NCBI GenBank assembly: GCA_963836075.1
Contig: CAWIIB010000001.1
Span: forward strand, 225,002-289,001
DNA length: 64,000 bases
Source: an uncultured Acidobacteriota bacterium
Lineage (GTDB): Bacteria > Acidobacteriota > JAQAZP01
Direction: 5' to 3'
Within the stretch, counting starts at the first letter, position 1. Each line of letters starts with the position of its first letter. This document shows, one piece after another, positions 4,711-46,528 of the stretch. Under the pieces are notes generated by a model. It was not told the origin of the DNA. It did not search any database and saw only the letters and a program-made list of their open reading frames with translations. Made by a program: the position numbers and the translations under genes.

Positions 4711-4967
4711 TCTGGCAGCCATTGGCAGGGTGGATCAATCCTTCTCGCCTTAAAAAACTACTGAAAAGATGGAGCTTACCGGCCCTGTCATGGGACGGTG
4801 CGGATTACCCGGTCCCTTTGCGCGTCTCTTGACAGCGGCGGAGGCGATGTGGCATAAACTGATGCATTCGATGTTGCGTTTTGTGTTGGATCGGATGAAT
4901 GGAATGTCGGCCGCCATCTTGAGGATTGAATGAACGTCTCCGTGGCAGGGGGAGGACGCAACAGACA

Positions 4968-6558: not shown

Positions 6559-8193
6559 ATGTCAGAACCTGAATACAAAATCGAAGACATAGCCCGTATC
6601 GACTACCGCCCGCCGAAGAAGGGCTGGATGGAGTCCGGCGCCGATTTCCGGGTAGGCACCTGGTGTTACAGCGCCAACGAGGAGAAGTGCCGCTATCTCG
6701 ACCTGCCCTTCCCGCACACCTGGTCGCCGTCCGACGAGGACTGGAAGCTGCCCCCGAACTGGAAGGAAATCATCCTCACCGCCCTGAGGGAGCGCAAGGA
6801 GAAATACCGTTCCTTCCAGCTGTTCATGGAGATCTGCGTCAGGTGCGGGGCCTGTGCCGACAAGTGCCACTACTTCATCGGCAGCGGCGACCCGAAGAAC
6901 ATGCCGGTGCTCCGCGGCGAGCTGCTGCGCTCGGTCTACCGCAAGGAGTTCACCACCTCGGGCAAACTGCTGGGCAAATTCGCCGGCGCCCGAGAGCTCA
7001 CCGAGGACGTAATCAAGGAGTGGTTCTACTACTTCTACCAGTGCACCGAGTGCCGGCGCTGTTCAGTCTTCTGCCCCTACGGCATCGACACCGCAGAGGT
7101 GACCATGCAGGGGCGGGAGCTGCTGGCCGAGATCGGGCTGGGGATAAACTGGATCAACGAGCCGGCGGCCAACTGCTTCCGCACCGGCAACCACCTGGGG
7201 ATCCAGCCCCACGCCTTTGTGGACAGCTTCGAGTTTGCGGTGGAAGACCTTGAGGACGTCACCGGGGTCAAGGTCGAGGCGCCGATCAACCGCAAGGGCG
7301 CCGAGATCCTGGTGGTGCCGCCCTCGGCCGACTACTTCGCTCACCCGCACTACTTCACCTTCCTCGGCTACCTGGCGCTGTTCCACGAGATCGGCCTGGA
7401 CTACACCTGGAGCGCTTACACCTCCGAGGGCGGGAACTTCGGCCTCTTCCACTCGCGGGAGATGATCAAGCGGCTCAATGCCAAGGTCTACGCCGAAGCC
7501 AAACGGCTGGGGGTCAAGTGGATTCTGGGCTGCGAGTGCGGCCACATGTGGCGGGTGATGCACCAGTACATGAACACGATGAACGGCCCGGCCGACTTCC
7601 TCGAGCAGCCGGTGTCGCCGATCACCGGGACCCGCTTCGGCAATGCCGCCTCGACCAAGATGGTGCACATCACCGAATTCACCGCGGACCTGATCCGCCA
7701 CAACAAGATCAAGCTGGACAAGAGCCGCAACGACCACATCCGGGCCACCTTCCACGACTCCTGCAACCCGGCCCGGGCCATGGGGCTGATCGATGAGCCG
7801 CGCTACGTGATCAACAACGTGTGCAACAACTTTTTCGAGATGCCGGACAACACCATCCGCGAGCAGACGTTCTGCTGCGGGTCGGGGGCCGGTCTGGGCA
7901 CCGACGAAAACATGGAGATGCGGCTGCGCGGCGGCATGCCGCGGGCCAACGCGGTGGAGTTCGTCAGGGACAAACACGGCGTGAACCACCTGCTCTGCAT
8001 CTGCGCCATCGACAAGGCCACCCTGCCGCCGCTGCTCGATTTCTGGGTGCCGGGGATCGAGGTGGCCGGAGTTCACGAGATGGTGGGCAACGCCCTGATC
8101 ATGGAGGGCTCCAATGACCGGAGCACCGACCTCCGCGGGGAGCCGTTGCCCCAGCTGGCCGCCACGGCGGAAGACAAGGGGGGTGACGACTAA
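6559..8193 (+). CDS. dsrK: DsrK, HdrD-like catalytic subunit (CCG domains, Fe-S) of DsrMKJOP
   Basis: ATG at 6559, 3 nt after the dsrM stop, with a GGAGAGGGAG RBS. The protein has CxxCxxC ferredoxin and CCG cysteine motifs (CNPARAMG…CCGSGAG). Confidence 0.9.
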   Translation: MSEPEYKIEDIARIDYRPPKKGWMESGADFRVGTWCYSANEEKCRYLDLPFPHTWSPSDEDWKLPPNWKEIILTALRERKEKYRSFQLFMEICVRCGACADKCHYFIGSGDPKNMPVLRGELLRSVYRKEFTTSGKLLGKFAGARELTEDVIKEWFYYFYQCTECRRCSVFCPYGIDTAEVTMQGRELLAEIGLGINWINEPAANCFRTGNHLGIQPHAFVDSFEFAVEDLEDVTGVKVEAPINRKGAEILVVPPSADYFAHPHYFTFLGYLALFHEIGLDYTWSAYTSEGGNFGLFHSREMIKRLNAKVYAEAKRLGVKWILGCECGHMWRVMHQYMNTMNGPADFLEQPVSPITGTRFGNAASTKMVHITEFTADLIRHNKIKLDKSRNDHIRATFHDSCNPARAMGLIDEPRYVINNVCNNFFEMPDNTIREQTFCCGSGAGLGTDENMEMRLRGGMPRANAVEFVRDKHGVNHLLCICAIDKATLPPLLDFWVPGIEVAGVHEMVGNALIMEGSNDRSTDLRGEPLPQLAATAEDKGGDD

Positions 8194-13224: not shown

Positions 13225-13435
13225 CCCGGACTCCGTGCCGTGACGCCGGAAGCGGACGCCCCGCGGCCCCCGATTCAGGGGGCCGGAGGTTTCCTCTCCG
13301 GCGTCACGCTGTACAGCGGAGAAGCCGCCATTCGGACAACGATACGTTGCGACAGCTGGGCCGGGTGGGGCGATTGGCTCTAAGTGCATATGGTTCAGAT
13401 GAATAGGGCTTCGCTGTCGGATTCCTTCCGATCCA

Positions 13436-13455
13436 ATGCAACAATATATGCAACA
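13436..13455 (+). promoter_or_regulatory. tandem direct repeat ATGCAACA-atat-ATGCAACA immediately upstream of the aprB promoter; candidate activator site
   Basis: An exact 8-bp direct repeat with a 4-bp spacer, ending 15 bp upstream of the -35 box. Confidence 0.4.
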
Positions 13456-13470
13456 TTTTCCCGAAACCCC

Positions 13471-13499
13471 TTGACAACCAAAATCGCTCTTGGTAGAGT
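13471..13499 (+). promoter_or_regulatory. sigma70-type promoter for aprBA (TTGACA-17-TAGAGT)
   Basis: Consensus -35 at 13471-13476, a 17-bp spacer, and -10 TAGAGT at 13494-13499. This implies a ~265-nt 5' leader. Confidence 0.5.
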
Positions 13500-13766
13500 T
13501 GGCGCTGATTTGTGTCGTGAATGATACTCGTACCAGTTCCCTCGGCTGACCGCCAGGGGAACCGGAGGATTTTCAGAGAGCTTCATTTCATATACAAGGT
13601 GTCAATCAATCGGGACGAGATTTCAGGAAAACTATGGGGCTTTTTCCCAAGGAATTCCACATTCAGGCTGAAAAGATAGCCCTGGGGAAGGGGGTGGCGC
13701 CAAAGTAGAAAAGGGTGTTTTCAGTCCATCGAATCGTTAGACTTGCAATTAAAGGAGACGCTGATA

Positions 13767-16333: not shown

Positions 16334-16627
16334 ATGACAGAACAGACACCCCAGACCTGCCCCCACTGCCAATCGGCCCTGTTGCCGTTTCGCACGCCGC
16401 CCAACACTTCGTGGGGCGGCAACATCCACCTGGCCTGCTTCAACGACGAATGTCCCTACTTCGTCCGCGGCTGGAAGTGGATGGCCGAAAAATACGAAGC
16501 CCACGCCTCGTACCGTTTCATGGTCGACCCGGTGAACGGGACCACCGGACCCCTGCCGGTCTGGTCGGCCCAGGCGCTGCGCGACTTGATTCTGCAAGAG
16601 GGCGAAGAGTGGGATTCCGAGGAGTGA
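16334..16627 (+). CDS. small zinc-ribbon-like hypothetical protein (CPHC…CFNDECPYF)
   Basis: 97-aa ORF with four Cys in a CxxC…CxxxC arrangement. It lies 4 nt upstream of the next ORF, in the same operon as qmoABC. Confidence 0.55.
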   Translation: MTEQTPQTCPHCQSALLPFRTPPNTSWGGNIHLACFNDECPYFVRGWKWMAEKYEAHASYRFMVDPVNGTTGPLPVWSAQALRDLILQEGEEWDSEE

Positions 16628-16631
16628 CTGG

Positions 16632-17454
16632 ATGAACGAGGCCAGCGATTTCAAGAAAAAGATCATGTCGGATGCGCCCCGCCTGAACTACGGCGACCGT
16701 TTCCGCTTTTCCTGCAACCCCGGCGTGCCCTGCTTCAATGCCTGCTGCGCCGACATCAACATCGTCTTGACCCCCTACGACATCCTGCGGCTGAAAAACC
16801 GCCTGGGCATCAGCTCCAGCGAATTCCTCGACAGATACGCCGTGGTGCCCTTCAACAAGGAAGTCAAGCAGCCGGTGCCGCTGCTCAAGATGTCGGACCA
16901 CGAGGACAAGCGCTGCCAGTTCGTTGGCCAACAGGGCTGCACGGTTTACGAGGACCGGCCCTGGGCCTGCCGGATGTACCCCCTGGGGCTGGCCGCACCG
17001 CGTGACGAAGCCGAGCAGGGCAAGCGGTTCTACTTCCTGCTGGAAGAGTCACACTGCAAGGGCTTCGAGGAAGACAACGAATTCTCGGTGGCCGGCTGGA
17101 TCGAAGACCAGGGGATCCGCGAGTACCGATGAGGCGGGGGAACTGTTCAAGGACATTTCGCTGCACCCCTATTTTGAAAAAGGCGACCTCTCGCCGGCCA
17201 AGATGGACATGTTCTTCAACGCCTCCTATGACCTGGACCGCTTCCGCCGGTTTGTCTTCGGATCGAGTTTTCTCGAAAAGTTCGACGTGGAGCAGGAGAC
17301 GGTGGACAAGATCAGGACCGATGACGTGGCGATGATGAAATTCAGCTTCAACTTCCTGCGCTACGCGCTGTTTTACGAACCGACGATGAAGTTGAAACCG
17401 GAGTTCGAAGAGATGAAGAAACGGGAGAAGGAGTTCTTCGAGGAGAAGGACTGA
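16632..17454 (+). CDS. YkgJ/UPF0153-family putative Fe-S/zinc-chelating protein with a C-terminal charged extension (one +1 frameshift)
   Basis: Has the CxxxxCxxCC…C family signature (SCNPGVPCFNACCADINIVLTPYD…CQFVGQQGCTVYEDRPWACRMYP). The reading frame shifts at ~17126 (an extra C in tacc), after which the protein continues as …DEAGELFKDISLHPYFEKGD… to 17454. Confidence 0.6.
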
Positions 17455-21029: not shown

Positions 21030-22145
21030 ATGAGTACCACAGCAGATCTCCAGTTCGCCAACGACGTGATCCGCGCCGGCGGGTCGGAGGTGATGAAATG
21101 CTACCAGTGCGCCACCTGCTCGGCGGTGTGCGAACTGGCGCCGGTGGACAAGCCGTTTCCGCGCAAGGAGATGATCTGGGCCCAGTGGGGGCTGCAGGAG
21201 CGGCTGATCGGCGATCCCGACGTCTGGCTCTGCCACCAGTGCAACGACTGCACCGTGCACTGCCCGCGAGGCGCCAAGCCGGCGGACGTGATGTCGGCGG
21301 TACGGCAGCTGAGCATCGAGCATTACGCGGTACCCCGGGCCCTGGCCCGGATGGTCAACAAACCCGGCATGCTGCCGCTGCTGCTGGCCATCCCGTCGCT
21401 GGTCATCGGGCTTATATTGATTCTGCTGTACGCCGGCGGGGTGATCGAGCTGGGCGGCCACGAGGTGGAATATGCCAAGATGTTTCCCCACGCCTGGCTC
21501 AACGGCAGCTTCACCATCTTCTTCTTTGTCGCCTGCGGGGCGCTGTTCGTCGGTTTGCGCCGCTTCTGGAACGACATGGACCGGCTGGCCCCGGCAACCG
21601 GGGCGGATCGCAAACCGCTGATCGGCTCGCTGATCGGGCTGCTGCTGGAGTTCATTGCGCACAGCCGTTTCGGCAAGTGCACCGACGACCACTATCGCAA
21701 ACTGTCCCACCTGGGGGTGGTTTTCGGTTTCGCCGGCCTGCTGCTGGTCACCGCCGTGGCCATCGTTTACATCCTGCTGCACCTGCCCTATCCCATGGCC
21801 CAGACCAACCCGTTCAAGATCCTCGGCAACCTCAGTGCCCTGGCCATGCTCAGCGGCCTGCTGGTGCTGATCTTCAAGCGTTTCGAAAAACGTGACACCG
21901 CCCGGGGCAGCACCTACTTTGACTGGTCCTTCCTCGTGCTGCTGCTGCTGGTGGTGGTCACAGGTCTGCTCACCGAGGCGGCCCGGCTGGTGGGCGTGGC
22001 TGCCGTGGCCTATCCGGTCTACTATGTGCACCTGGTTATCATCTGGTCACTCTTCGTCTATGCGCCCTATTCCAAAATGGCCCACCTGGCCTACCGGCTC
22101 ACCGCGCTGCTGCACGCCCGGGTCAATGGCAGGGAGGAGGTCTGA
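21030..22145 (+). CDS. qmoC: QmoC, HdrC/HdrE-fusion membrane subunit (Fe-S plus heme b)
   Basis: N-terminal 2x[4Fe-4S] (CYQCATCSAVC, CHQCNDCTVHCP) followed by a NarI-like membrane domain. Confidence 0.9.
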   Translation: MSTTADLQFANDVIRAGGSEVMKCYQCATCSAVCELAPVDKPFPRKEMIWAQWGLQERLIGDPDVWLCHQCNDCTVHCPRGAKPADVMSAVRQLSIEHYAVPRALARMVNKPGMLPLLLAIPSLVIGLILILLYAGGVIELGGHEVEYAKMFPHAWLNGSFTIFFFVACGALFVGLRRFWNDMDRLAPATGADRKPLIGSLIGLLLEFIAHSRFGKCTDDHYRKLSHLGVVFGFAGLLLVTAVAIVYILLHLPYPMAQTNPFKILGNLSALAMLSGLLVLIFKRFEKRDTARGSTYFDWSFLVLLLLVVVTGLLTEAARLVGVAAVAYPVYYVHLVIIWSLFVYAPYSKMAHLAYRLTALLHARVNGREEV

Positions 22146-22160
22146 GGACCTGAAACACCG

Positions 22161-23915
22161 ATGAAGAACAGCATCCAAGTGGAACAGCTCCGCAGCCTGG
22201 AGAAAAAACTGCGCGATTCCTTTCCTTCCCGCTCCCTCTGGGACGGCCTGGCCGACGTGATCCCCGACGCCATGTTCGTCATGGACGAGGACCGCCGGAT
22301 CATTTACTGGAGCGGAAGGGCGGAGGAGATGACCGGGTTCACCCCCGGGGACGTGCTGGGCAAGAACTGCTGTGCCGACGAGCGGTGCAACAACTGCCCC
22401 AAGGGTTGCCCGTTGTTCCAGGAGGGTTCGATGAACAACCTGGAAGGCATTTTTGCCACCAAGGACGGGCGGGTGATCCCGGTGCTGAAGAACGGTCTGC
22501 TGTTCCGCAACCGCCGGGGGCGGATCCTCGGCGCGGTGGAAACCATCCGCGACATCTCCATCGAGGAGCAGACCAGCCAGAGTCTGGCCCGGGAGCAGGT
22601 GCGTTTCGATTCGCAGAAACGTCTGTTGGAGTCGGTGATCGGCGCGGTGTCCGAAGGGGCGGTGGCCATCGACCGTGACCTGCAGATCATCAGCTTCTCC
22701 CGTCAGGCCTCGGAGATCAGCGGGGTAGCGGTGGAGGATGCCATCGGCGCCAAGTGCTGCGACATCCTGCGCAACCCGCTCTGCGAGGAGCAGTGCCCGA
22801 TGCAGCACCTGGCCGATCACCGGACCAGGCAGCCCGGGCTGCCCACCCGGATCAGCGGCGCCGGCGGCGACAGCATTCCGGTCACCGAGTCGGTGGTGCC
22901 GATCTTCATGGAGGGCAAGCTCAGCGGCGGGATCATCATCCTGCGCGACATGCGGGCCGAGGAAAAGCTGGCCCTGGAACAGATGCGCAGCGGGCAGCTG
23001 GACGAGATGATCGGCCGTTCCAGCGCGATGCAGAACATCTTCTATCTCATCGACCGGCTGGCCGAAATCGACACTCCGGTCTGTCTGGTGGGGGAGGCCG
23101 GAACCGGGCGGGATATCGTCGCCCGGACCCTGCACCGCAAGAGTGTTCGGTCCGAGGGCCAGCTGCGCAGCATCGACTGCGGCCTGCTTCCCGAGCACCT
23201 GCTGGAGAGCGAGTTTTTCGGGCATCTCAAGGGCGCCCTGCCCGGGGCGGTGCGCGACAAGGTCGGGCAGCTGGAACTGGCCCACCGGGGTACGCTGTAC
23301 GTGGCCCAGGTGGAAAAGCTGCCCCGGCCGCTGCAGAAGAAGCTCGTGCGGTTTCTCGAGACCGGGGAATTCACCAAGGTGGGCGGCAAGAACAGTATCG
23401 AAAGCGACGTGCGGATGATCTGCGCCTTCAACGAGGATTTCGAATCCCTGGTGCAAGAGGGACGCATCGGCAAGGACCTCTATGACGCCGTGTGCGGAAT
23501 CGTGATCAACATCCCGCCGCTGCGCGACCGCCGACTGGACATCGAACTGCTGGTGGTCCACTTTCTCAAGAGCCAGGACGTCTCGGGGATCGGTGAAACC
23601 CAGGCGAAGAAGATATCCGCCGGCGCCCTGCGGGCCCTGGTCCGCTACCCCTGGCCCGGCAACGTTCGAGAACTGCGTAACGTCCTCGACTACGCGGTAT
23701 CGGTCTGCTCGGGAACGACGATCAACCTCAACGATTTGCCACCGGAGATCATCAGCTCGCTGGTTCCCAGCGACGATTCCGGTGAGGACGATGAACGGAC
23801 CCGGATCCTCCGCGCCCTGGAGGAAACCCACTGGCGCCGTTCGGAAGCGGCCCAGGCCCTGGGAATGGACCGTTCCACCCTCTGGAGAAAGATGAAATCC
23901 TTCGGTCTCTGCTGA
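22161..23915 (+). CDS. sigma54-dependent Fis-family transcriptional regulator with two Cys-rich PAS-like sensor domains
   Basis: AAA+ sigma54-interaction domain (GEAGTGRD…GAFTGA-like region, ESEFFGH) and a C-terminal Fis HTH (RSEAAQALGMDRSTLWRKM). The N-terminal PAS-like region carries the Cys-rich motifs CCADERCNNCPKGCP and CCDILRNPLCEEQCP. The gene starts 16 nt after qmoC. Confidence 0.8.
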   Translation: MKNSIQVEQLRSLEKKLRDSFPSRSLWDGLADVIPDAMFVMDEDRRIIYWSGRAEEMTGFTPGDVLGKNCCADERCNNCPKGCPLFQEGSMNNLEGIFATKDGRVIPVLKNGLLFRNRRGRILGAVETIRDISIEEQTSQSLAREQVRFDSQKRLLESVIGAVSEGAVAIDRDLQIISFSRQASEISGVAVEDAIGAKCCDILRNPLCEEQCPMQHLADHRTRQPGLPTRISGAGGDSIPVTESVVPIFMEGKLSGGIIILRDMRAEEKLALEQMRSGQLDEMIGRSSAMQNIFYLIDRLAEIDTPVCLVGEAGTGRDIVARTLHRKSVRSEGQLRSIDCGLLPEHLLESEFFGHLKGALPGAVRDKVGQLELAHRGTLYVAQVEKLPRPLQKKLVRFLETGEFTKVGGKNSIESDVRMICAFNEDFESLVQEGRIGKDLYDAVCGIVINIPPLRDRRLDIELLVVHFLKSQDVSGIGETQAKKISAGALRALVRYPWPGNVRELRNVLDYAVSVCSGTTINLNDLPPEIISSLVPSDDSGEDDERTRILRALEETHWRRSEAAQALGMDRSTLWRKMKSFGLC

Positions 23916-24148
23916 AACCGGGACCGTTTCGCCCGCTGCCGGGGGACAATACCCTGCCTCTGGCCCGATTCCGGGCCACAATCAGGTCACAAGCAACGCG
24001 ATGTTGCACTTCCCTGACCCGGGCATGACTTTTTGATATAAAGCTGTAAAGTGTTACAAGTAATATTATTAAACCTCATGCCACATTGCTGCCTTTTGTG
24101 ATAACAACATATTTTGCAACAGAATATTCACCGCGTTGGTCGAAATGC

Positions 24149-24177
24149 TTGACAGGTGGTCACGCTTGGAGTATAAA
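24149..24177 (+). promoter_or_regulatory. near-consensus sigma70 promoter for dsrC (TTGACA-17-TATAAA)
   Basis: TTGACA at 24149-24154, a 17-bp spacer, and TATAAA at 24172-24177, in a locally AT-rich 360-bp intergenic region. It leaves a ~95-nt leader carrying a small hairpin (GGCGCCtcgGGCGC) before the AAAGGAG RBS. Confidence 0.6.
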
Positions 24178-24278
24178 CGGTCTCCATAGAGTTGGATTTT
24201 CATGTACCGTGTTTTGAATCGGGCATTATTTCAATCTTGGATTTGGCGCCTCGGGCGCTCATCAAAAGGAGTTTATAG

Positions 24279-24596
24279 ATGCCAGTTTTTGAATTCGATG
24301 GACAGGAGATCGAGGTCGACGAGGACGGGTTCATCCAGAATCCCGATGTCTGGAACGACGACATCGCCGCGGCGCTGGCCAAGACCGAGGGTGTCGACGA
24401 ACTGACCGAAGACCACTGGAAGCTGGTCCGCTACCTCCGGGACTACTACCTGCAGTTCGGTATCGCCCCCATGATCCGCAAGCTCTGCAAGGCCACCGGC
24501 TTCTCGCTGAAGACCGTTTACGAACTGTTCCCCAGCGGCCCGGCAAAGGGTGCCTGCAAGGTGGCTGGTCTGCCCAAGCCCACCGGCTGTGTGTAA
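24279..24596 (+). CDS. dsrC: DsrC, dissimilatory sulfite reductase-associated sulfur-carrier protein (TusE/DsrC family)
   Basis: 105 aa ending …KGACKVAGLPKPTGCV, with the two conserved C-terminal arm cysteines. An AAAGGAG RBS lies 7 nt upstream. Confidence 0.9.
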   Translation: MPVFEFDGQEIEVDEDGFIQNPDVWNDDIAAALAKTEGVDELTEDHWKLVRYLRDYYLQFGIAPMIRKLCKATGFSLKTVYELFPSGPAKGACKVAGLPKPTGCV

Positions 24597-27052: not shown

Positions 27053-27295
27053 ATGGCTGATGTCAGCATCGAGCAGATTGCGGACGAGATGTTCAAGATG
27101 GTCGAAGACGCCTCCGGCAAGCGGAACTACAAGCCGGGCGACCTGGTCAAGGCCATGATGGCCAAGTTCGACGCGGACAAGAAGACCTGCAAGACTGCTC
27201 TGCGGACGCTGATGGACTCCGGCCGCTGTGTCTACGGATACTTCGGCGGAACTTCGGTCCAGTTGCCGCACAAGGAAGGCGCTGCGAACGACTAG
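27053..27295 (+). CDS. dsrD: DsrD (small winged-helix protein, marker of reductive-type Dsr)
   Basis: 80 aa in the conserved position after dsrB, with a lysine-rich winged-helix-like sequence (…KPGDLVKAMMAKFDADKKTCKTALRTLMDSGRCVYGYFGG…). Confidence 0.8.
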   Translation: MADVSIEQIADEMFKMVEDASGKRNYKPGDLVKAMMAKFDADKKTCKTALRTLMDSGRCVYGYFGGTSVQLPHKEGAAND

Positions 27296-27304
27296 CGTAT
27301 GCTG

Positions 27305-27346
27305 GCCGGCGGGGCTCCCGCGGGGGTCCCGCCGGCTGATTTTCCC
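27305..27346 (+). terminator. GC-rich hairpin followed by TGATTTTCC after dsrD; candidate intrinsic terminator
   Basis: GCCGGCGGG…CCCGCCGGC stem with a nested CCCGCGGG palindrome, then a T-run. Confidence 0.5.
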
Positions 27347-28929: not shown

Positions 28930-30639
28930 ATGGCGAAGATGGTCAAGAAAAAGAAAAAGAAGAAGTACGGCGCATCGAGATTCGGCGGCGGTTCGGCCGG
29001 CGGATCGGGGGGCGGCAAATCCGACCTCAGGCCCAAATTCGTGGAGAAGACCCCGCCCTGTACCGACAAGTGCCCGAACAACAACAATATCCGCGAAGCG
29101 CTGCGGGTGGTCGCCTCGTCAGAAAAGCAGGGCCGCACCTACGAGCAGTCGCTGGAAGCCGCCTGGTTCACCTTCACCGAGACCTCGCCCTTTCCCTCCG
29201 TCTGCGGACGGGTCTGTCCCCACCCCTGTGAGGGTGCCTGCAACCGCACCGAAGTTGACGGTGCAGTGGGGATCAACGCCTTCGAGCGCGCCGTGGGCGA
29301 CTACGGCATCGAGCAGGGTCTGAAACTGACCCGGCTCACCGAAGAAAAGAGGGAGGAGAAGGTTGCAGTGGTGGGTGCCGGTCCGGCCGGCATGTCCTGT
29401 GCGTTCCACCTGGCGCGACGCGGATACCCGGTGACCGTCTTCGAGGGTTTTCCCCGGGCCGGCGGCATGCTGCGCTACGGCATCCCTCCCTACCGGCTGC
29501 CCCGCAACATCATCGACGCTGAAGTGGCGAAGATCCTCGAACTGGGGGTCGATTTGAAGTGCGACACCGCGGTGGGCACCGATATCAGCTACGATGAGCT
29601 GAAGAACGATTACAAGGCCGTGTTCATGGGCATCGGGGCCCACAAGGGCCGGCAGCTGCGGGTGGAAGGGGAGGAGGCGGCAAATGTCTGGACGGGCGCC
29701 GACTTCCTGCACCGCCTGAACTCCGGGGAGAAGGTCGAGGTGGGGGACAAGGTGATCGTCATCGGCGGCGGCGACAGCGCCATCGATGCCGCCCGGGCTT
29801 CCAGGCGCCTCGGTGCAGATGTCCGGATCATCTACCGGCGGACCATCGAGGAGATGCCGGCCATATCCCACGAGGTGACCGCGGCCCAGGACGAGGGGAT
29901 CCAGATCGATTTCCTCGCCGCACCCGCGGGCATCCAGCTGGACGACAACGGCAAGGCCGTGGCCATGACCTGCATCCGCATGGAGCTGGGCGAGCCTGAC
30001 GAATCGGGCCGCCGCCGCCCGGTGCCGCAGGAGGGGTCGGAGTTTTCAGTGGAGACCACCACCATCATCGCCGCCATCAGCCAGGAACCGGACTTTGACA
30101 ATCTGGAGTTCCTGCGCGAAGGCCGCGACTGGCTCAAGGTGGACCAGCACCAGAAAATGCTCAAATTCGACGACATCTATGCCGGTGGCGATGCCCTGGA
30201 CCTGGCCACGGTGATCCAGGCCATCGCTCACGGCAAGGAGGCGGCGATCACCATCGACGCCAACCTGCGCGCTGAGGAGCGGCCCCGCGGACCGTGGGCC
30301 GACTATGCGGTGATCAAGCACGAGAAGATGAAACTCAGTTTTTACGAGAAGCTGGAGCGTCACGAAGTGCCTGAGCTGCCGGTGGCGGAGCGGTTCGAAA
30401 ACGGGATGGAGAAGGAGGTGGCGCTGGGGCTGAGCCGCGAGGACGGCATCGAGGAGGCCAAGCGCTGTATGAGCTGCGGCCATTGCATGGACTGTGAGAG
30501 CTGCTGGATGTACTGCACCCCGGCGGCGGTGGTCAAACCGGACCAGCCCGGCGGTGACTACGCCTTCAAGCTGGAACTGTGCGACGGCTGCAAGAAGTGC
30601 GCCGAGGAATGTCCCTGTGGCTACATCGAGATGTTCTGA
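28930..30639 (+). CDS. DsrL-like NAD(P)H oxidoreductase (GltD family plus C-terminal 2x[4Fe-4S] ferredoxin domain)
   Basis: GltD-type N-terminal Fe-S motifs (CTDKCP, CGRVCPHPCEGAC), FAD and NAD(P) Rossmann folds (VAVVGAGPAGMSCA; VIVIGGGDSAIDAA) and an extra C-terminal ferredoxin domain (CMSCGHCMDCESC…CDGCKKCAEEC). The N-terminus has a K8 tract. Confidence 0.65.
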   Translation: MAKMVKKKKKKKYGASRFGGGSAGGSGGGKSDLRPKFVEKTPPCTDKCPNNNNIREALRVVASSEKQGRTYEQSLEAAWFTFTETSPFPSVCGRVCPHPCEGACNRTEVDGAVGINAFERAVGDYGIEQGLKLTRLTEEKREEKVAVVGAGPAGMSCAFHLARRGYPVTVFEGFPRAGGMLRYGIPPYRLPRNIIDAEVAKILELGVDLKCDTAVGTDISYDELKNDYKAVFMGIGAHKGRQLRVEGEEAANVWTGADFLHRLNSGEKVEVGDKVIVIGGGDSAIDAARASRRLGADVRIIYRRTIEEMPAISHEVTAAQDEGIQIDFLAAPAGIQLDDNGKAVAMTCIRMELGEPDESGRRRPVPQEGSEFSVETTTIIAAISQEPDFDNLEFLREGRDWLKVDQHQKMLKFDDIYAGGDALDLATVIQAIAHGKEAAITIDANLRAEERPRGPWADYAVIKHEKMKLSFYEKLERHEVPELPVAERFENGMEKEVALGLSREDGIEEAKRCMSCGHCMDCESCWMYCTPAAVVKPDQPGGDYAFKLELCDGCKKCAEECPCGYIEMF

Positions 30640-44950: not shown

Positions 44951-46405
44951 TTACAAGAGCTGTCGACGATGAGTGGATGATGGTATTTTCATCTCCTCCC
45001 GATACTTGGCCACGGTTCTGCGGGCGATTTCAAGCCCTTCCTGTTTGAGCAGTTTGACGATCGCCGAATCGCTCAGCGGCTTTTCAGCGTTTTCCCCGCT
45101 GACAAAGTCCTTGATCTTCCCCTTGACGCTGAGCGACGACACATCACTGCCGCCATCCGAACTGATGCCGCTGTGGAAGAAGTAGCGCATCTCGAACACG
45201 CCGCGGGGCGTGTGCATATACTTGTTGGAGACCACCCGGCTCACCGTGGACTCGTGCATCTGGATGTCTTCGGCCACATCGCGCAGCACCAGGGGCTTCA
45301 TGTGGTGGATGCCGTGGTCCAGAAAGGCCCGCTGGTGCTTGACCACACTCTGGGCCACCTTGTAGATGGTGCGCTGCCGCTGTTCGAGACTCTTGATCAG
45401 CCACAGTGCCGAACGGAACTTGTCCCGGATGTAGTTCTTGGTGTCGGCACTGTTTTCCTTGCCCTTCTCCAGCATCTTCCGGTAGTAGGGGCTCAGTTTG
45501 AGCCGGGGCAGCCCGTCCTCGTTGAGCAGCACCACATACTCGTCGTCCACCTTGACCACGTGGATGTCGGGCACCACGTATTGCGAATTGACATTGTTGT
45601 ATTTCAGCCCCGGCCGCGGGTCCAGCTGCCGGATGATGTCGAGGTAGCGTCCCACCTCCTCCAGCGAACAGTCCAGCACGGTGGCGATCTCCTTGTAGCG
45701 CCGCTTCTGCAGCAGGTCCAGGTGGTCCCGGACGATCACCTCCACCTCGGTGCCCAGCGCGTCCACCGCCTTGAGTTGCAGCAGCAGGCACTCCTTGAGG
45801 TTCCGCGCAGCGACGCCGGCCGGGTCAAAGGACTGCACCAGGTCGATGGCCCGGGCGACGGTTTCCAGCCCATACCCGCCCATGGTCTGCAACTCATCGT
45901 CGCTGGCCATCAACATTCCGTCTTCGTTGAGATTGCCGATCACCGCTTCGGCAGCCTCGCGCAGGGATTCGTCGGACTGGGACACTCCAAGCTGCCACTG
46001 CAGGTGGTCGGTGAGGTTGGGCGGTTTCTGCAGAAAGTTCTCATACGAAGGCAGTTCACGGACTTCGGACATTCCCTGGAAGGTGCGCGGTCCGATGGCC
46101 GGGTCGAGGTATTCCTGAAAATAGGAATCCATGTCGATTTCGCTGAATGAATCCTCCTTGACCTCCGGCTCGGTCTTTTCCACGGGAGGGCTTTCGGCTT
46201 CCGGCTGCTCCGCGGCGCCCGGTTCGGTGGGCGGCTCCACCGCGGTCTCCTCCAGCACCGGGTTCTCCACCAGTTCCTGGGTCAGCACGTCCTGCAGTTC
46301 CAGGCGGTTCAACTGCAGCAGTTTGATCGCCTGCTGCAGCGACGGAGTCATGATCAGCTTCTGGGTCAGCTTGAGGGACAAGCTGAGTCGTTGGTCGAAC
46401 GCCAT
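44951..46405 (-). CDS. rpoN: RNA polymerase sigma-54 factor
   Basis: N-terminus MAFDQRLSLSLKLTQKL, the RpoN box (ARRTVAKYRE) and an HTH. It is flanked by lptB and hpf, as is canonical. Confidence 0.9.
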   Translation of the reverse strand: MAFDQRLSLSLKLTQKLIMTPSLQQAIKLLQLNRLELQDVLTQELVENPVLEETAVEPPTEPGAAEQPEAESPPVEKTEPEVKEDSFSEIDMDSYFQEYLDPAIGPRTFQGMSEVRELPSYENFLQKPPNLTDHLQWQLGVSQSDESLREAAEAVIGNLNEDGMLMASDDELQTMGGYGLETVARAIDLVQSFDPAGVAARNLKECLLLQLKAVDALGTEVEVIVRDHLDLLQKRRYKEIATVLDCSLEEVGRYLDIIRQLDPRPGLKYNNVNSQYVVPDIHVVKVDDEYVVLLNEDGLPRLKLSPYYRKMLEKGKENSADTKNYIRDKFRSALWLIKSLEQRQRTIYKVAQSVVKHQRAFLDHGIHHMKPLVLRDVAEDIQMHESTVSRVVSNKYMHTPRGVFEMRYFFHSGISSDGGSDVSSLSVKGKIKDFVSGENAEKPLSDSAIVKLLKQEGLEIARRTVAKYREEMKIPSSTHRRQLL

Positions 46406-46528
46406 CTGGTATCGCCTCAAAAACCTTTCATGGTCTGGTCAACACTTCTGCTCGGGGCACCGGCTTCCGCTGTAATCCGTTTCGGCCGATTGGGCCCCGA
46501 GGATTACCCCCGGTTGCCGTTTGGGCTG

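What the first reader, a model, noticed from the sequence alone, without database searches (positions are those of the whole stretch)
22161..23915. Sigma54-dependent regulator with two Cys-rich PAS-like domains between qmoC and dsrC
The regulator lacks a receiver domain and has two PAS-like modules. Each carries a CC-x4-6-C-x2-3-C cysteine cluster (CCADERCNNCPKGCP; CCDILRNPLCEEQCP), which suggests metal, Fe-S or redox/sulfide sensing. It starts 16 nt after qmoC with no intervening terminator, and rpoN lies about 21 kb downstream in the same window. I could not find a well-spaced TGGCAC-N5-TTGC promoter in the island's intergenic regions, so its target is unknown.
Basis: partly seen in the sequence, partly recalled or inferred. 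Interest (0 to 1): 0.55.

Follow-up and report, generated by a model that had tools for sequence, protein, structure and literature searches.

The report
Dead-ATPase iron-sulfur regulator of sulfate respiration
The gene between qmoC and dsrC looks like a sigma-54 activator, but it has lost every motif needed to burn ATP or touch sigma-54; it most likely works as a redox-sensing DNA-binding switch at ordinary (sigma-70-type) promoters of the sulfate-respiration genes around it.

Summary
The ORF is real: 22161-23915 (+), 584 aa, PAS-PAS-AAA+-lid-HTH_8, no receiver domain, 15 nt after qmoC.

Both Cys clusters are conserved in all orthologues.
- PAS2 reads C199-x-D201-x6-C208-x3-C212, the same spacing as the [4Fe-4S] ligands published for OrpR.
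- PAS1 has the same triad plus C76.

"Sigma54-dependent" is not supported. In all family members found:
- Walker A Lys is Arg.
- Walker B DE is AQ, SQ, LR, IN or AN.
- GAFTGA is degenerate and variable.
- The Arg fingers are gone.

The next relatives (36% identity or less) are canonical. The gene is still under strong purifying selection: dN/dS about 0.1, and the HTH is 85% identical across lineages that are 53% identical overall.

The apr-qmo and dsrC-dsrAB operons have conserved TTGACA-17-TATAAA-like promoters. Each is preceded by a palindrome (G/A)CAAC-N5-GTTGC and by phased CAACA repeats. The dsrT-MKJOP promoter carries the repeats, and in the Schekmanbacteria locus the palindrome as well. 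Two canonical relatives carry the same palindrome upstream of genuine -24/-12 promoters.

Best reading: an atypical, sigma-54-independent EBP with OrpR-like Fe-S PAS sensors that controls the dissimilatory sulfate-reduction genes. This is a new variant of a known kind.

The parts
22161..23915 (+). Regulator ORF, 584 aa: PAS-PAS-degenerate AAA+-lid-HTH_8
   Evidence: orthologues P0001-P0010 at 54-94% identity; overall dN/dS 0.06-0.14
22251..22559 (+). PAS1 (residues 31-133)
   Evidence: Pfam PAS_9/PAS; AF2 PAS fold, sensor-construct model mean pLDDT 87.7
22368..22412 (+). Cys cluster 1: C70 C71 C76 C79 C83 P84. Core is C70-x8-C79-x3-C83-P, plus C76.
   Evidence: Invariant in the aligned full-length orthologues. 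The paralogue pattern is C-x5-C-x2-C-x3-C.
22650..22961 (+). PAS2 (residues 164-267)
   Evidence: Pfam PAS_4; AF2
22755..22799 (+). Cys cluster 2: C199-(C200)-D201-x6-C208-x3-C212-P213, the same spacing as OrpR C52/D-E54/C61/C65
   Evidence: OrpR paper PMC8359166
23007..23498 (+). Degenerate AAA+ (Sigma54_activat) domain
   Evidence: Pfam score 163 bits; residue-by-residue alignment to NtrC-family protein 4l4u, ZraR and NifA; dN/dS 0.07-0.16
23091..23114 (+). Walker A GEAGTGRD: Lys replaced by R317
   Evidence: GTGR in all family members found, GTGK in all 23 next relatives
23232..23249 (+). L1 loop GALPGA in place of GAFTGA; variable among orthologues
23295..23312 (+). Walker B LYVAQV: D->A382, E->Q383
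23466..23492 (+). Arg-finger region IGKDLYDAV in place of FRxDLYYRL: G437 and A443 replace the two Arg
23793..23900 (+). HTH_8 (Fis-type) DNA-binding domain
   Evidence: Pfam; dN/dS 0.01-0.03; 85% identical to the Schekmanbacteria orthologue
23993..24007 (.). Distal palindrome GCAACGCGATGTTGC upstream of dsrC
   Evidence: Conserved in six orthologous loci. A related palindrome ACAACGGAACGTTGC lies in the same intergenic region of L081. The same palindrome type is the UAS of canonical relatives.
24105..24121 (+). Tandem CAACA-N7-CAACA array, centre about -71 from the predicted dsrC start
24149..24177 (+). Sigma-70-type promoter of dsrC-dsrAB: TTGACA-17-TATAAA
   Evidence: Read from the sequence; conserved in six loci
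13336..13350 (.). Distal palindrome ACAACGATACGTTGC upstream of aprB
   Evidence: conserved in Schekmanbacteria locus L081 at 268-282
13439..13455 (+). Tandem CAACAATATATGCAACA array, 15 bp upstream of the apr -35
13471..13499 (+). Sigma-70-type promoter of aprBA-qmoABC-regulator: TTGACA-17-TAGAGT with TG
4829..4858 (+). Sigma-70-type promoter of dsrT-MKJOP: TTGACA-18-CATAAA
   Evidence: conserved in L092
4848..4888 (-). Four phased 12-bp repeats (CAACA, CAACA, CATCA, CCACA on the minus strand) covering -10 to about +24 of the dsrT promoter
   Evidence: the conserved stretch is also present in L092
44951..46420 (-). rpoN (context only): sigma-54 is present in the genome

Best explanation
This is an 'atypical' enhancer-binding protein. 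It descends from sulfur-associated sigma-54 activators but can no longer hydrolyse ATP or contact sigma-54.

**DNA binding (inferred).** Its highly conserved Fis-type HTH binds the palindrome (G/A)CAAC-N5-GTTGC and arrays of CAACA half-sites phased at 12 bp. These sites flank the sigma-70-type promoters of the three dissimilatory sulfate-reduction operons: aprBA-qmoABC-regulator (so it is autoregulated), dsrC-dsrAB, and dsrT-MKJOP.

**Sensing (inferred).** The two N-terminal PAS domains each hold an OrpR-like Cys set, most likely a [4Fe-4S] cluster. Cluster state, set by redox potential, O2 or a sulfur species, is passed through the long PAS-PAS and PAS-AAA+ helices to the AAA+ domain. That domain is catalytically dead but under selection, and now serves as an oligomerisation and signal-relay scaffold. 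It may still bind nucleotide through the retained GxxGxGR P-loop.

**Output (inferred).**
- Site geometry suggests activation at apr and dsrC, where the arrays are centred at about -59 and -71.
- It suggests occlusion at dsrT, where the array lies over -10 to +24.
- The sign of regulation is not established.

**What is shown and what is inferred.** Shown: motif loss, conservation, synteny, the promoter and site architecture, and the shared palindrome in canonical relatives. Inferred: Fe-S binding, DNA binding to these sites, sigma-70 dependence, and the signal.
For: **Motif loss.**
- K317R, D339 for the Glu-switch Asn, GALPGA, A382/Q383, G437/A443, read against NtrC-family protein 4l4u, ZraR and NifA.
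- The same losses occur in all ten orthologues.
- They also occur in the only other family members found in an exhaustive 1.84-billion-protein search (P0006 cluster, P0010, P0128). All 23 next relatives are canonical.

**Not a relic.**
- dN/dS is 0.07-0.16 for the AAA+ domain and 0.01-0.03 for the HTH.
- The qmoC-regulator-dsrC order holds in all eight orthologous loci, including Ca. Schekmanbacteria.

**Sensor.**
- The Cys sets are invariant.
- PAS2 matches the OrpR ligand spacing.
- The AF2 tandem-PAS model has pLDDT 87.7. Its best structural matches are cofactor-bearing redox, O2 or light sensors: DosP, LOV-PAS, NifL, MmoS, FixL.

**Promoters.**
- TTGACA-17/18-TATAAA-like promoters are conserved.
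- No sense-strand sigma-54 promoter lies in these regions.

**Sites.**
- CAACA-N7-CAACA occurs 4 times in the window against 0.06 expected. Three of the four lie in the three DSR promoters.
- All 10 hits in the orthologous loci are in the apr or dsrC promoters.
- There are 0 hits in three related dsr loci that lack the regulator, and 0.44 per 100 kb in 80 control loci.
- The Schekmanbacteria dsrT promoter has the palindrome, then three phased repeats, then TTGACA 15 bp further on.

**Link between site and protein.** Canonical relatives P0011 and P0015 have a near-identical recognition helix. Both carry G(C/A)AAC-N5-GTT(G/T)C palindromes roughly 50-110 bp upstream of -24/-12 promoters (TGGCACCGGCGTTGC and TGGCACGCCCCCTGCT) of Pyr_redox_2-DsrC-DsrE operons.
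Against: - There are no experimental data of any kind. Promoters and transcription starts are consensus predictions.
- Counts of the palindrome alone are only about twice background in the window. The argument rests on position and conservation.
- Site positions relative to the promoter differ between operons and between lineages. In L081 the apr array is downstream of -10, while the dsrT array is upstream of -35. A simple activator or repressor logic is therefore not evident.
- The OrpR sequence itself could not be aligned. Only the published residue numbers were compared.
- Arg in place of the Walker A Lys can still allow nucleotide binding, so some ATP dependence is not excluded.
- The close orthologues are not independent samples.
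Confidence: 0.55

Rival explanations
1. The protein is a conventional sigma-54-dependent activator, and its -24/-12 target promoter lies elsewhere in the genome.
For: It hits Pfam Sigma54_activat, AAA_lid_14 and HTH_8. rpoN is present in the window. Only 64 kb of a roughly 2.3 Mb contig could be searched.
Against: GAFTGA, Walker A Lys, Walker B DE, the Glu-switch Asn and both Arg fingers are replaced in all family members found. The L1 tip varies freely among orthologues. The ancestral UAS palindrome sits in front of sigma-70-type promoters, not -24/-12 promoters.
Confidence: 0.04
2. The protein is an atypical EBP as proposed, but the Cys clusters do not hold an Fe-S cluster. Instead they act as thiol, persulfide or Zn switches that sense sulfide or sulfane sulfur, or are structural Zn sites.
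For: - The organism's pathway produces sulfide.
- Canonical relatives sit next to Pyr_redox_2-DsrC-DsrE sulfur-handling operons.
- The family has added vicinal Cys pairs, C70-C71 and C199-C200.
- From my own knowledge, bEBPs that sense sulfane sulfur through Cys exist (FisR).
Against: PAS2 has exactly the OrpR [4Fe-4S] ligand spacing, including the acidic residue at +2. Both motifs end in C-P, and PAS1 has C-x2-C-x3-C-P, which resembles the ferredoxin cluster motif (my own knowledge). C200 is dispensable in P0010.
Confidence: 0.2
3. The conserved CAAC palindromes and arrays are bound by a different factor, for example the Ogr/Delta-like zinc-finger protein encoded next to aprA, or DsrT. On this view the regulator acts elsewhere, or only by protein-protein contacts, for example by poisoning hexamers of a canonical EBP.
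For: An Ogr_Delta-like ORF (16334-16627) is conserved in the locus. No binding data exist. A dead AAA+ subunit could in principle form mixed rings.
Against: - The same palindrome lies upstream of the targets of two canonical relatives that share the HTH recognition helix. No Ogr_Delta gene was called in those two short loci.
- The Latescibacteria locus L091 keeps Ogr_Delta and CxxCxxCC but has no regulator and no motif in the regions covered.
- The HTH is the most conserved part of the protein.
Confidence: 0.12
4. The gene is a decaying, non-functional remnant of a sigma-54 activator.
For: Many catalytic motifs are lost at once.
Against: The ORF is intact at 583-584 aa in seven sequenced loci. 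dN/dS is 0.06-0.14. The position is fixed across lineages that share only 53% identity. The replacement residues themselves are conserved, for example R317.
Confidence: 0.02

Closest known systems
OrpR of Desulfovibrio vulgaris Hildenborough (PMC8359166)
   Same: A bEBP-type protein from a sulfate reducer. Its PAS domain carries C-x-[D/E]-x6-C-x3-C, which was shown to bind a redox-sensitive [4Fe-4S] cluster and to gate activity. PAS2 here has the identical spacing, and PAS1 has the same triad.
   Different: OrpR has one PAS domain, an intact ATPase and GAFTGA, and activates sigma-54 promoters of the orp operons. This protein has two Cys-PAS domains, a dead AAA+ domain, and sits at sigma-70-type promoters of the apr, qmo and dsr genes.
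Atypical EBPs: VpsR, TyrR, PhhR, HupR, HsfA, NtrX, and NtrC of Rhodobacter and Caulobacter (PMC6158489; bioRxiv 10.1101/2023.06.06.543975)
   Same: They have bEBP architecture but lack GAFTGA. Some have non-consensus Walker motifs. They act at sigma-70 promoters as activators or repressors.
   Different: - None is orthologous. The best NCBIfam scores are far below the curated cut-offs, and VpsR is among the weakest PDB hits.
- Most of them are receiver- or ACT-gated.
- To my knowledge none has Fe-S-type PAS sensors or controls sulfate respiration.
- The loss here is more complete: Walker A Lys, Walker B DE, the Glu-switch Asn and both Arg fingers.
Canonical Cys-PAS bEBPs next to Pyr_redox_2-DsrC-DsrE operons (P0011, P0015; uncharacterised)
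   Same: They are among the closest sequence relatives outside the family (36-40% identity over the aligned region). They share the HTH recognition helix and the upstream palindrome G(C/A)AAC-N5-GTT(G/T)C. P0011 also shares the PAS1 Cys motif.
   Different: They keep GTGK, GAFTGA and DE, and have clear -24/-12 promoters.
NreB (Staphylococcus) Fe-S PAS oxygen sensor
   Same: A PAS domain with a Cys-ligated [4Fe-4S] cluster used as an O2/redox sensor (cited in PMC8359166).
   Different: It is a histidine kinase, with four Cys in a different spacing (my own knowledge). It was not compared here.
Rex and HcpR control of sulfate-reduction genes in Desulfovibrio
   Same: They are transcription factors proposed or shown to act on sat and aps genes (my own knowledge). 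A Rex-type gene (PF06971 + CoA_binding) lies near the dsr genes in regulator-less locus L089.
   Different: They belong to different protein families and bind different operators, of the TTGTGA/TCACAA type. They are not encoded inside the qmo-dsr cluster.

Membership tests
Bacterial enhancer-binding protein (sigma-54 activator) | AAA+ domain of the Sigma54_activat type plus a C-terminal HTH | tested here: met
   PF00158 at 7e-48, AAA_lid_14 and HTH_8
Bacterial enhancer-binding protein (sigma-54 activator) | GAFTGA loop that contacts sigma-54 | tested here: not met
   GALPGA here. Orthologues have GSLSGA, DSLSGA, GAMPGA, GAIAGA and ECVPGA.
Bacterial enhancer-binding protein (sigma-54 activator) | Walker A GxxxxGK and Walker B hhhhDE for ATP hydrolysis | tested here: not met
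   GEAGTGRD and LYVAQV. The same class of change occurs in all family members found.
Bacterial enhancer-binding protein (sigma-54 activator) | Arg fingers (FRxDLYYRL) and Glu-switch Asn | tested here: not met
   IGKDLYDAV, with D339 in place of the Asn
Bacterial enhancer-binding protein (sigma-54 activator) | Cognate -24/-12 promoter downstream of its binding sites | tested here: not met
   None in the sense-strand intergenic regions of the window or of six orthologous loci. The same approach finds -24/-12 promoters, one of them a perfect match, next to the canonical relatives.
Atypical (sigma-54-independent) EBP | bEBP architecture without a functional GAFTGA | tested here: met
Atypical (sigma-54-independent) EBP | Acts at sigma-70-dependent promoters | tested here: inconclusive
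   Conserved TTGACA-17/18-TATAAA-like promoters lie next to the candidate sites. There is no transcription-start or in vitro data.
OrpR-type Fe-S PAS sensor | PAS domain with conserved C-x-[D/E]-x6-C-x3-C | tested here: met
   PAS2 has C199, D201, C208 and C212. PAS1 has C70, C79 and C83 plus C76. This was compared with the residue numbers in PMC8359166. There was no direct alignment to OrpR.
OrpR-type Fe-S PAS sensor | Binds a redox-labile [4Fe-4S] cluster | not testable with these tools
   Needs anaerobic purification, UV-vis and EPR
Named bEBP equivalogs (PrdR, NtrC, NifA, AtoC, NorR, TyrR and others) | Score above the NCBIfam curated cut-off | tested here: not met
   The best hit is PrdR at 263 bits against a cut-off of 795. 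All equivalog models fall far below their cut-offs.

The most novel reading that the evidence does not exclude
The AAA+ domain is not merely a dead scaffold. Its strictly conserved GExGTGR P-loop, kept while every hydrolysis residue was lost, has been repurposed as a binding pocket for an adenylate or sulfur nucleotide of the pathway, such as ATP, AMP, APS or PPi. The protein would then integrate two inputs, Fe-S redox state and the energy or APS status of sulfate activation, to set transcription of the whole dissimilatory sulfate-reduction pathway from sigma-70 promoters. It would also be a natural, datable case of sigma-54-to-sigma-70 rewiring with the ancestral enhancer site retained.
Probability: 0.12. 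Interest if true: 0.8.

Novelty: new variant of a known kind. Interest (0 to 1): 0.62.

Why it matters
**A candidate regulator for a pathway that lacks one.** To my knowledge, no dedicated transcription factor has been established for the core genes of dissimilatory sulfate reduction (sat, aprBA, qmoABC, dsrAB, dsrC, dsrMKJOP). These genes are often treated as constitutive. Here a regulator is built into the gene cluster of an uncultured lineage and its Schekmanbacteria relatives, with a predicted operator at the promoter of each of three operons. This gives a concrete, testable model of how sulfate respiration could be tied to redox state.

**A clean evolutionary example.** Canonical relatives keep the same DNA site in front of sigma-54 promoters. 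This family keeps the site but has lost the ATPase and the sigma-54 contact, and its targets carry sigma-70-type promoters.

**An annotation warning.** The Pfam label 'Sigma-54 interaction domain' would wrongly place these genes in the RpoN regulon.

Tried and rejected
- **Genome-contig scan with the family alignment.** The back-translated patterns were generic bEBP motifs. It returned 80 unrelated canonical regulators and no orthologue. I reused these loci as negative controls for the motif counts.
- **Exact look-up of the window protein.** Nothing was found, although the cluster look-up shows it on a 2.3-Mb contig. The organism could not be named. The nearest named DnaK relatives are Acidobacteriota at about 75%. 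DsrB is 72-76% identical to a mix of uncultured phyla.
- **OrpR supplementary alignment.** It is not held, so OrpR was compared only through its published residue numbers.
- **Rfam.** No hits in the window.
- **dsrC leader fold.** Not better than shuffles (z = -0.09), so no leader-RNA claim is made.
- **The plain hexamer TGCAAC.** It is not enriched in the window (23 observed against 31 expected). Only the phased and palindromic arrangements are specific.
- **A weak sigma-54-like string in the dsrC upstream region (TGCCAC-N5-TGCC).** Rejected because it lacks the GG and is not conserved.
- **A recurrent sigma-54-like match at 22386-22401 on the minus strand.** It is the antisense of the codons for C-N-N-C-P, so it was rejected.
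- These had an indexing error in my script and should be ignored. One search is the valid scan.
- **Rex-type operator.** The conserved GAATATTCACC next to the dsrC array is not a good Rex palindrome, judged by inspection.
- **Metagenome scan with DsrT.** It gave only one extra locus, L092.
Full report
**1.

ORF 22161-23915 (+) encodes 584 aa. Pfam gives:
- PAS, residues 31-133
- PAS_4, residues 164-267
- Sigma54_activat, residues 283-446
- AAA_lid_14, residues 455-533
- HTH_8, residues 545-580
- no receiver domain

The gene starts 15 nt after a QmoC-like gene (21030-22145). A 363-bp spacer follows it, and then dsrC (24279-24596), dsrA, dsrB, an 80-aa DsrD-like ORF, dsrN, a DsrL-like gene, a CBS gene and sat. 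No plus-strand terminator-like site lies between qmoC and the strong hairpin at 27303-27338. rpoN is at 44951-46420 on the minus strand.

**2. The family is small and tightly linked to the locus**

A word-indexed search of 5.8 billion proteins found ten orthologue clusters at 54-94% identity, then a drop to 36%. An exhaustive profile search of 1.84 billion representatives added only one fragment, P0128.

The order qmoC-regulator-dsrC-dsrAB holds in all eight orthologous loci fetched. The loci that extend far enough upstream also show aprBA, a small Ogr/Delta-like ORF and a CxxCxxCC gene before qmoABC. This includes a Ca. Schekmanbacteria MAG. Three loci with the most similar DsrB but from other lineages have no such regulator.

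The organism could not be named. The nearest named DnaK relatives are Acidobacteriota at about 75%.

**3. The AAA+ domain is catalytically dead and cannot contact sigma-54**

Residue-by-residue alignments to NtrC-family protein 4l4u, ZraR and NifA and to paralogues show these replacements:

| Motif | Canonical | This protein |
|---|---|---|
| Walker A | GESGTGKE | GEAGTGRD (K317R) |
| Glu-switch | Asn | D339 |
| L1 loop | GAFTGA | GALPGA |
| Walker B | LFLDEI | LYVAQV (A382, Q383) |
| Arg fingers | FRxDLYYRL | IGKDLYDAV (G437, A443) |
| Sensor I | AATN | CAFN |

All family members found share GTGR and lack DE; their versions are AQ, SQ, LR, IN and AN. The L1 tip varies freely among them (GSLSGA, DSLSGA, GAMPGA, GAIAGA, ECVPGA). 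The sensor II Arg is lost in two of them. All 23 next-closest relatives keep GTGK, GAFTGA-like loops, DE and the Arg fingers.

From established knowledge of bEBPs, GAFTGA is required for sigma-54 contact, and Walker B Asp-Glu and the Arg finger are required for hydrolysis. So 'sigma54-dependent' is not tenable.

No NCBIfam equivalog comes near its cut-off.

**4. It is not a relic**

Nei-Gojobori dN/dS between orthologues is 0.06-0.14 overall. By domain it is 0.07-0.16 for the AAA+ domain, 0.04-0.10 for the lid and 0.01-0.03 for the HTH. The HTH is 85% identical between the window and the Schekmanbacteria protein, although the whole proteins share 53%. The P-loop residues G311, E312, G314, T315, G316 and R317 are invariant.

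**5. The sensor**

The invariant residues are C70, C71, C76, C79 and C83 in PAS1, and C199, C208, C212 and P213 in PAS2. C200 is lost only in P0010.
- PAS2 reads C199-x-D201-x6-C208-x3-C212.
- The OrpR paper identifies C52, C61 and C65, plus a conserved D/E54, in the single PAS domain of OrpR. It shows that these ligate a [4Fe-4S]2+ cluster that converts to [3Fe-4S]1+ on mild oxidation and switches the activator off (PMC8359166). The spacing is identical.
- PAS1 has the same C-x8-C-x3-C triad, with C76 as a possible fourth ligand. The pattern in paralogues is C-x5-C-x2-C-x3-C.

AlphaFold2 models give mean pLDDT 83 for the full length and 87.7 for residues 25-280. They show two PAS folds joined by a 30-residue helix. 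The Cys stretches fall in the helical region between the N-terminal strands and the C-terminal sheet, and confidence dips locally there. From general knowledge of PAS domains, this is the usual cofactor pocket.

The best structural matches are cofactor-bearing tandem-PAS sensors: DosP, Brucella LOV-PAS, NifL, MmoS and FixL.

This supports Fe-S or redox sensing but does not prove it. A thiol, persulfide or Zn switch remains possible.

**6. The promoters of the island are sigma-70-type and carry a shared operator architecture**

*dsrC.* The spacer upstream of dsrC was aligned across seven loci. The following blocks are conserved in the six close loci; in the Schekmanbacteria locus part of this region is masked:
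- the palindrome GCAACGCGATGTTGC (23993-24007)
- CAACA-N7-CAACA (24105-24121)
- TTGACA (24149-24154), a 17-nt spacer, then TATAAA (24172-24177)

*aprB*:
- ACAACGATACGTTGC (13336-13350)
- CAACAATATATGCAACA (13439-13455)
- TTGACA-17-TAGAGT (13471-13499)

*dsrT-MKJOP*:
- TTGACA-18-CATAAA (4829-4858)
- four 12-bp-phased repeats on the minus strand (4848-4888) lying over -10 to about +24
- the stretch is conserved in a 70%-identical relative, L092

*Statistics.*
- CAACA-N7-CAACA occurs four times in the window against 0.06 expected. The fourth hit is inside dsrK.
- All ten hits in the orthologous loci are in the apr or dsrC promoters.
- There are no hits in the three dsr loci that lack the regulator, and 0.44 per 100 kb in 80 unrelated loci.

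*Schekmanbacteria locus.* A palindrome precedes apr, dsrC and dsrT. The dsrT promoter reads palindrome, then CAACA-N7-CAACG-N7-CAACA, then 15 bp, then TTGACA.

*Sigma-54 scan.* No sense-strand GG-N10-GC promoter with 2 mismatches or fewer lies in these regions.

**7. What ties the sites to this protein**

Two canonical relatives with almost the same recognition helix, R(S/T)TLWRKM, were examined.

| Relative | Locus | Adjacent operon | Palindromes | Sigma-54 promoter |
|---|---|---|---|---|
| P0011 | L093 | divergent from Pyr_redox_2-HMP-DsrC-DsrE | GCAACGCAACGTTGC and GAAACGTGATGTTTC | perfect TGGCACCGGCGTTGC, about 107 bp from the first palindrome |
| P0015 | L094 | upstream of Pyr_redox_2-DsrC-DsrE | GAAACGTTTCGTTGC and GCAACGCGGCGTTTC | TGGCACGCCCCCTGCT, about 50-65 bp downstream |

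The relaxed palindrome occurs at 1.7 per 100 kb in the controls.

So the palindrome is the ancestral upstream activating site of this HTH clade. The window's family kept it but placed it before sigma-70-type promoters. This argues for the regulator, and against the Ogr/Delta-like protein, as the binder. No Ogr/Delta-like gene was called in L093 or L094. It is present in the regulator-less, motif-less locus L091.

**8. Most likely mechanism**

*Shown:*
- an EBP-derived protein that cannot hydrolyse ATP or engage sigma-54
- it is under purifying selection
- it is fixed inside the sulfate-reduction cluster
- conserved operator-like DNA lies at three sigma-70-type promoters

*Inferred:*
- It binds these sites as an oligomer. 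The distal palindrome and proximal arrays lie about 100-120 bp apart.
- Its twin PAS domains carry Fe-S clusters whose state controls assembly or RNAP contact.
- It activates apr-qmo (and therefore itself) and dsrC-dsrAB, and may occlude the dsrT promoter.

The sign of regulation is uncertain because site positions differ between operons and lineages. Arg in the P-loop may still allow nucleotide binding without hydrolysis, as in RecA K72R (my own knowledge).

**9. Comparison with what is known**

- It works like the atypical EBPs: TyrR, PhhR, HupR, HsfA, NtrX, VpsR, and Rhodobacter and Caulobacter NtrC (PMC6158489; bioRxiv 2023.06.06.543975).
- It senses like OrpR.
- It is orthologous to none of them.
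- It fails four defining tests for a sigma-54 activator.
- It is a new variant of a known kind.

**10. Verdict**

Interest is 0.62. It is a candidate master regulator of dissimilatory sulfate reduction and a clear natural case of sigma-54-to-sigma-70 rewiring. All of this rests on comparative sequence evidence only.

Noticed in passing
window 16632-17454 (extra C at 17126): The CxxCxxCC (PF03692) gene between aprA and qmoA is split by a single-base insertion, relative to the intact 273-aa gene in L082, L084 and L087. This is either a sequencing error or a real frameshift.
   Followed up: partly
window 13506-13766: aprBA appears to have a 5' leader of about 260 nt, with long blocks conserved across orthologous loci. 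There is no Rfam match. It could be a structured or regulatory leader.
   Followed up: no
window 24184-24278: The dsrC leader is conserved and has a GC hairpin (GGCGCC..GGCGC) next to the ribosome-binding site. The fold of the whole leader is no better than shuffles (z = -0.09).
   Followed up: partly
window 16334-16627: A 97-aa Ogr/Delta-like zinc-finger ORF is conserved between aprA and the CxxCxxCC gene. It is also present in a Latescibacteria locus that has no regulator. Its function is unknown.
   Followed up: partly
L093 1985-4724 and L094 6987-9099: The closest canonical relatives of the regulator sit next to Pyr_redox_2-(HMP)-DsrC-DsrE operons with sigma-54 promoters (one a perfect consensus match). 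This looks like an uncharacterised sigma-54-controlled sulfur-handling module.
   Followed up: partly
window 27053-27295: An 80-aa ORF directly after dsrB is in the DsrD position but gives no Pfam hit at E <= 0.001. It is conserved in all orthologous loci that extend past dsrB.
   Followed up: no
window 28930-30639: A DsrL-like gene (Fer4_20 + Pyr_redox_2, 569 aa) sits in a cluster that otherwise looks reductive (dsrD-like ORF, dsrT-MKJOP). It is relevant to whether the organism reduces sulfate, disproportionates or oxidises sulfur.
   Followed up: no
window 22386-22401 (minus strand): A sigma-54-like string, TGGGGCAGTTGTTGCA, recurs in all orthologues. It is simply the antisense of the codons for the conserved C-N-N-C-P motif.
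   Followed up: yes
window 7812-7828: A fourth exact CAACA-N7-CAACA match lies inside the dsrK coding region. It may be chance or an internal site.
   Followed up: no
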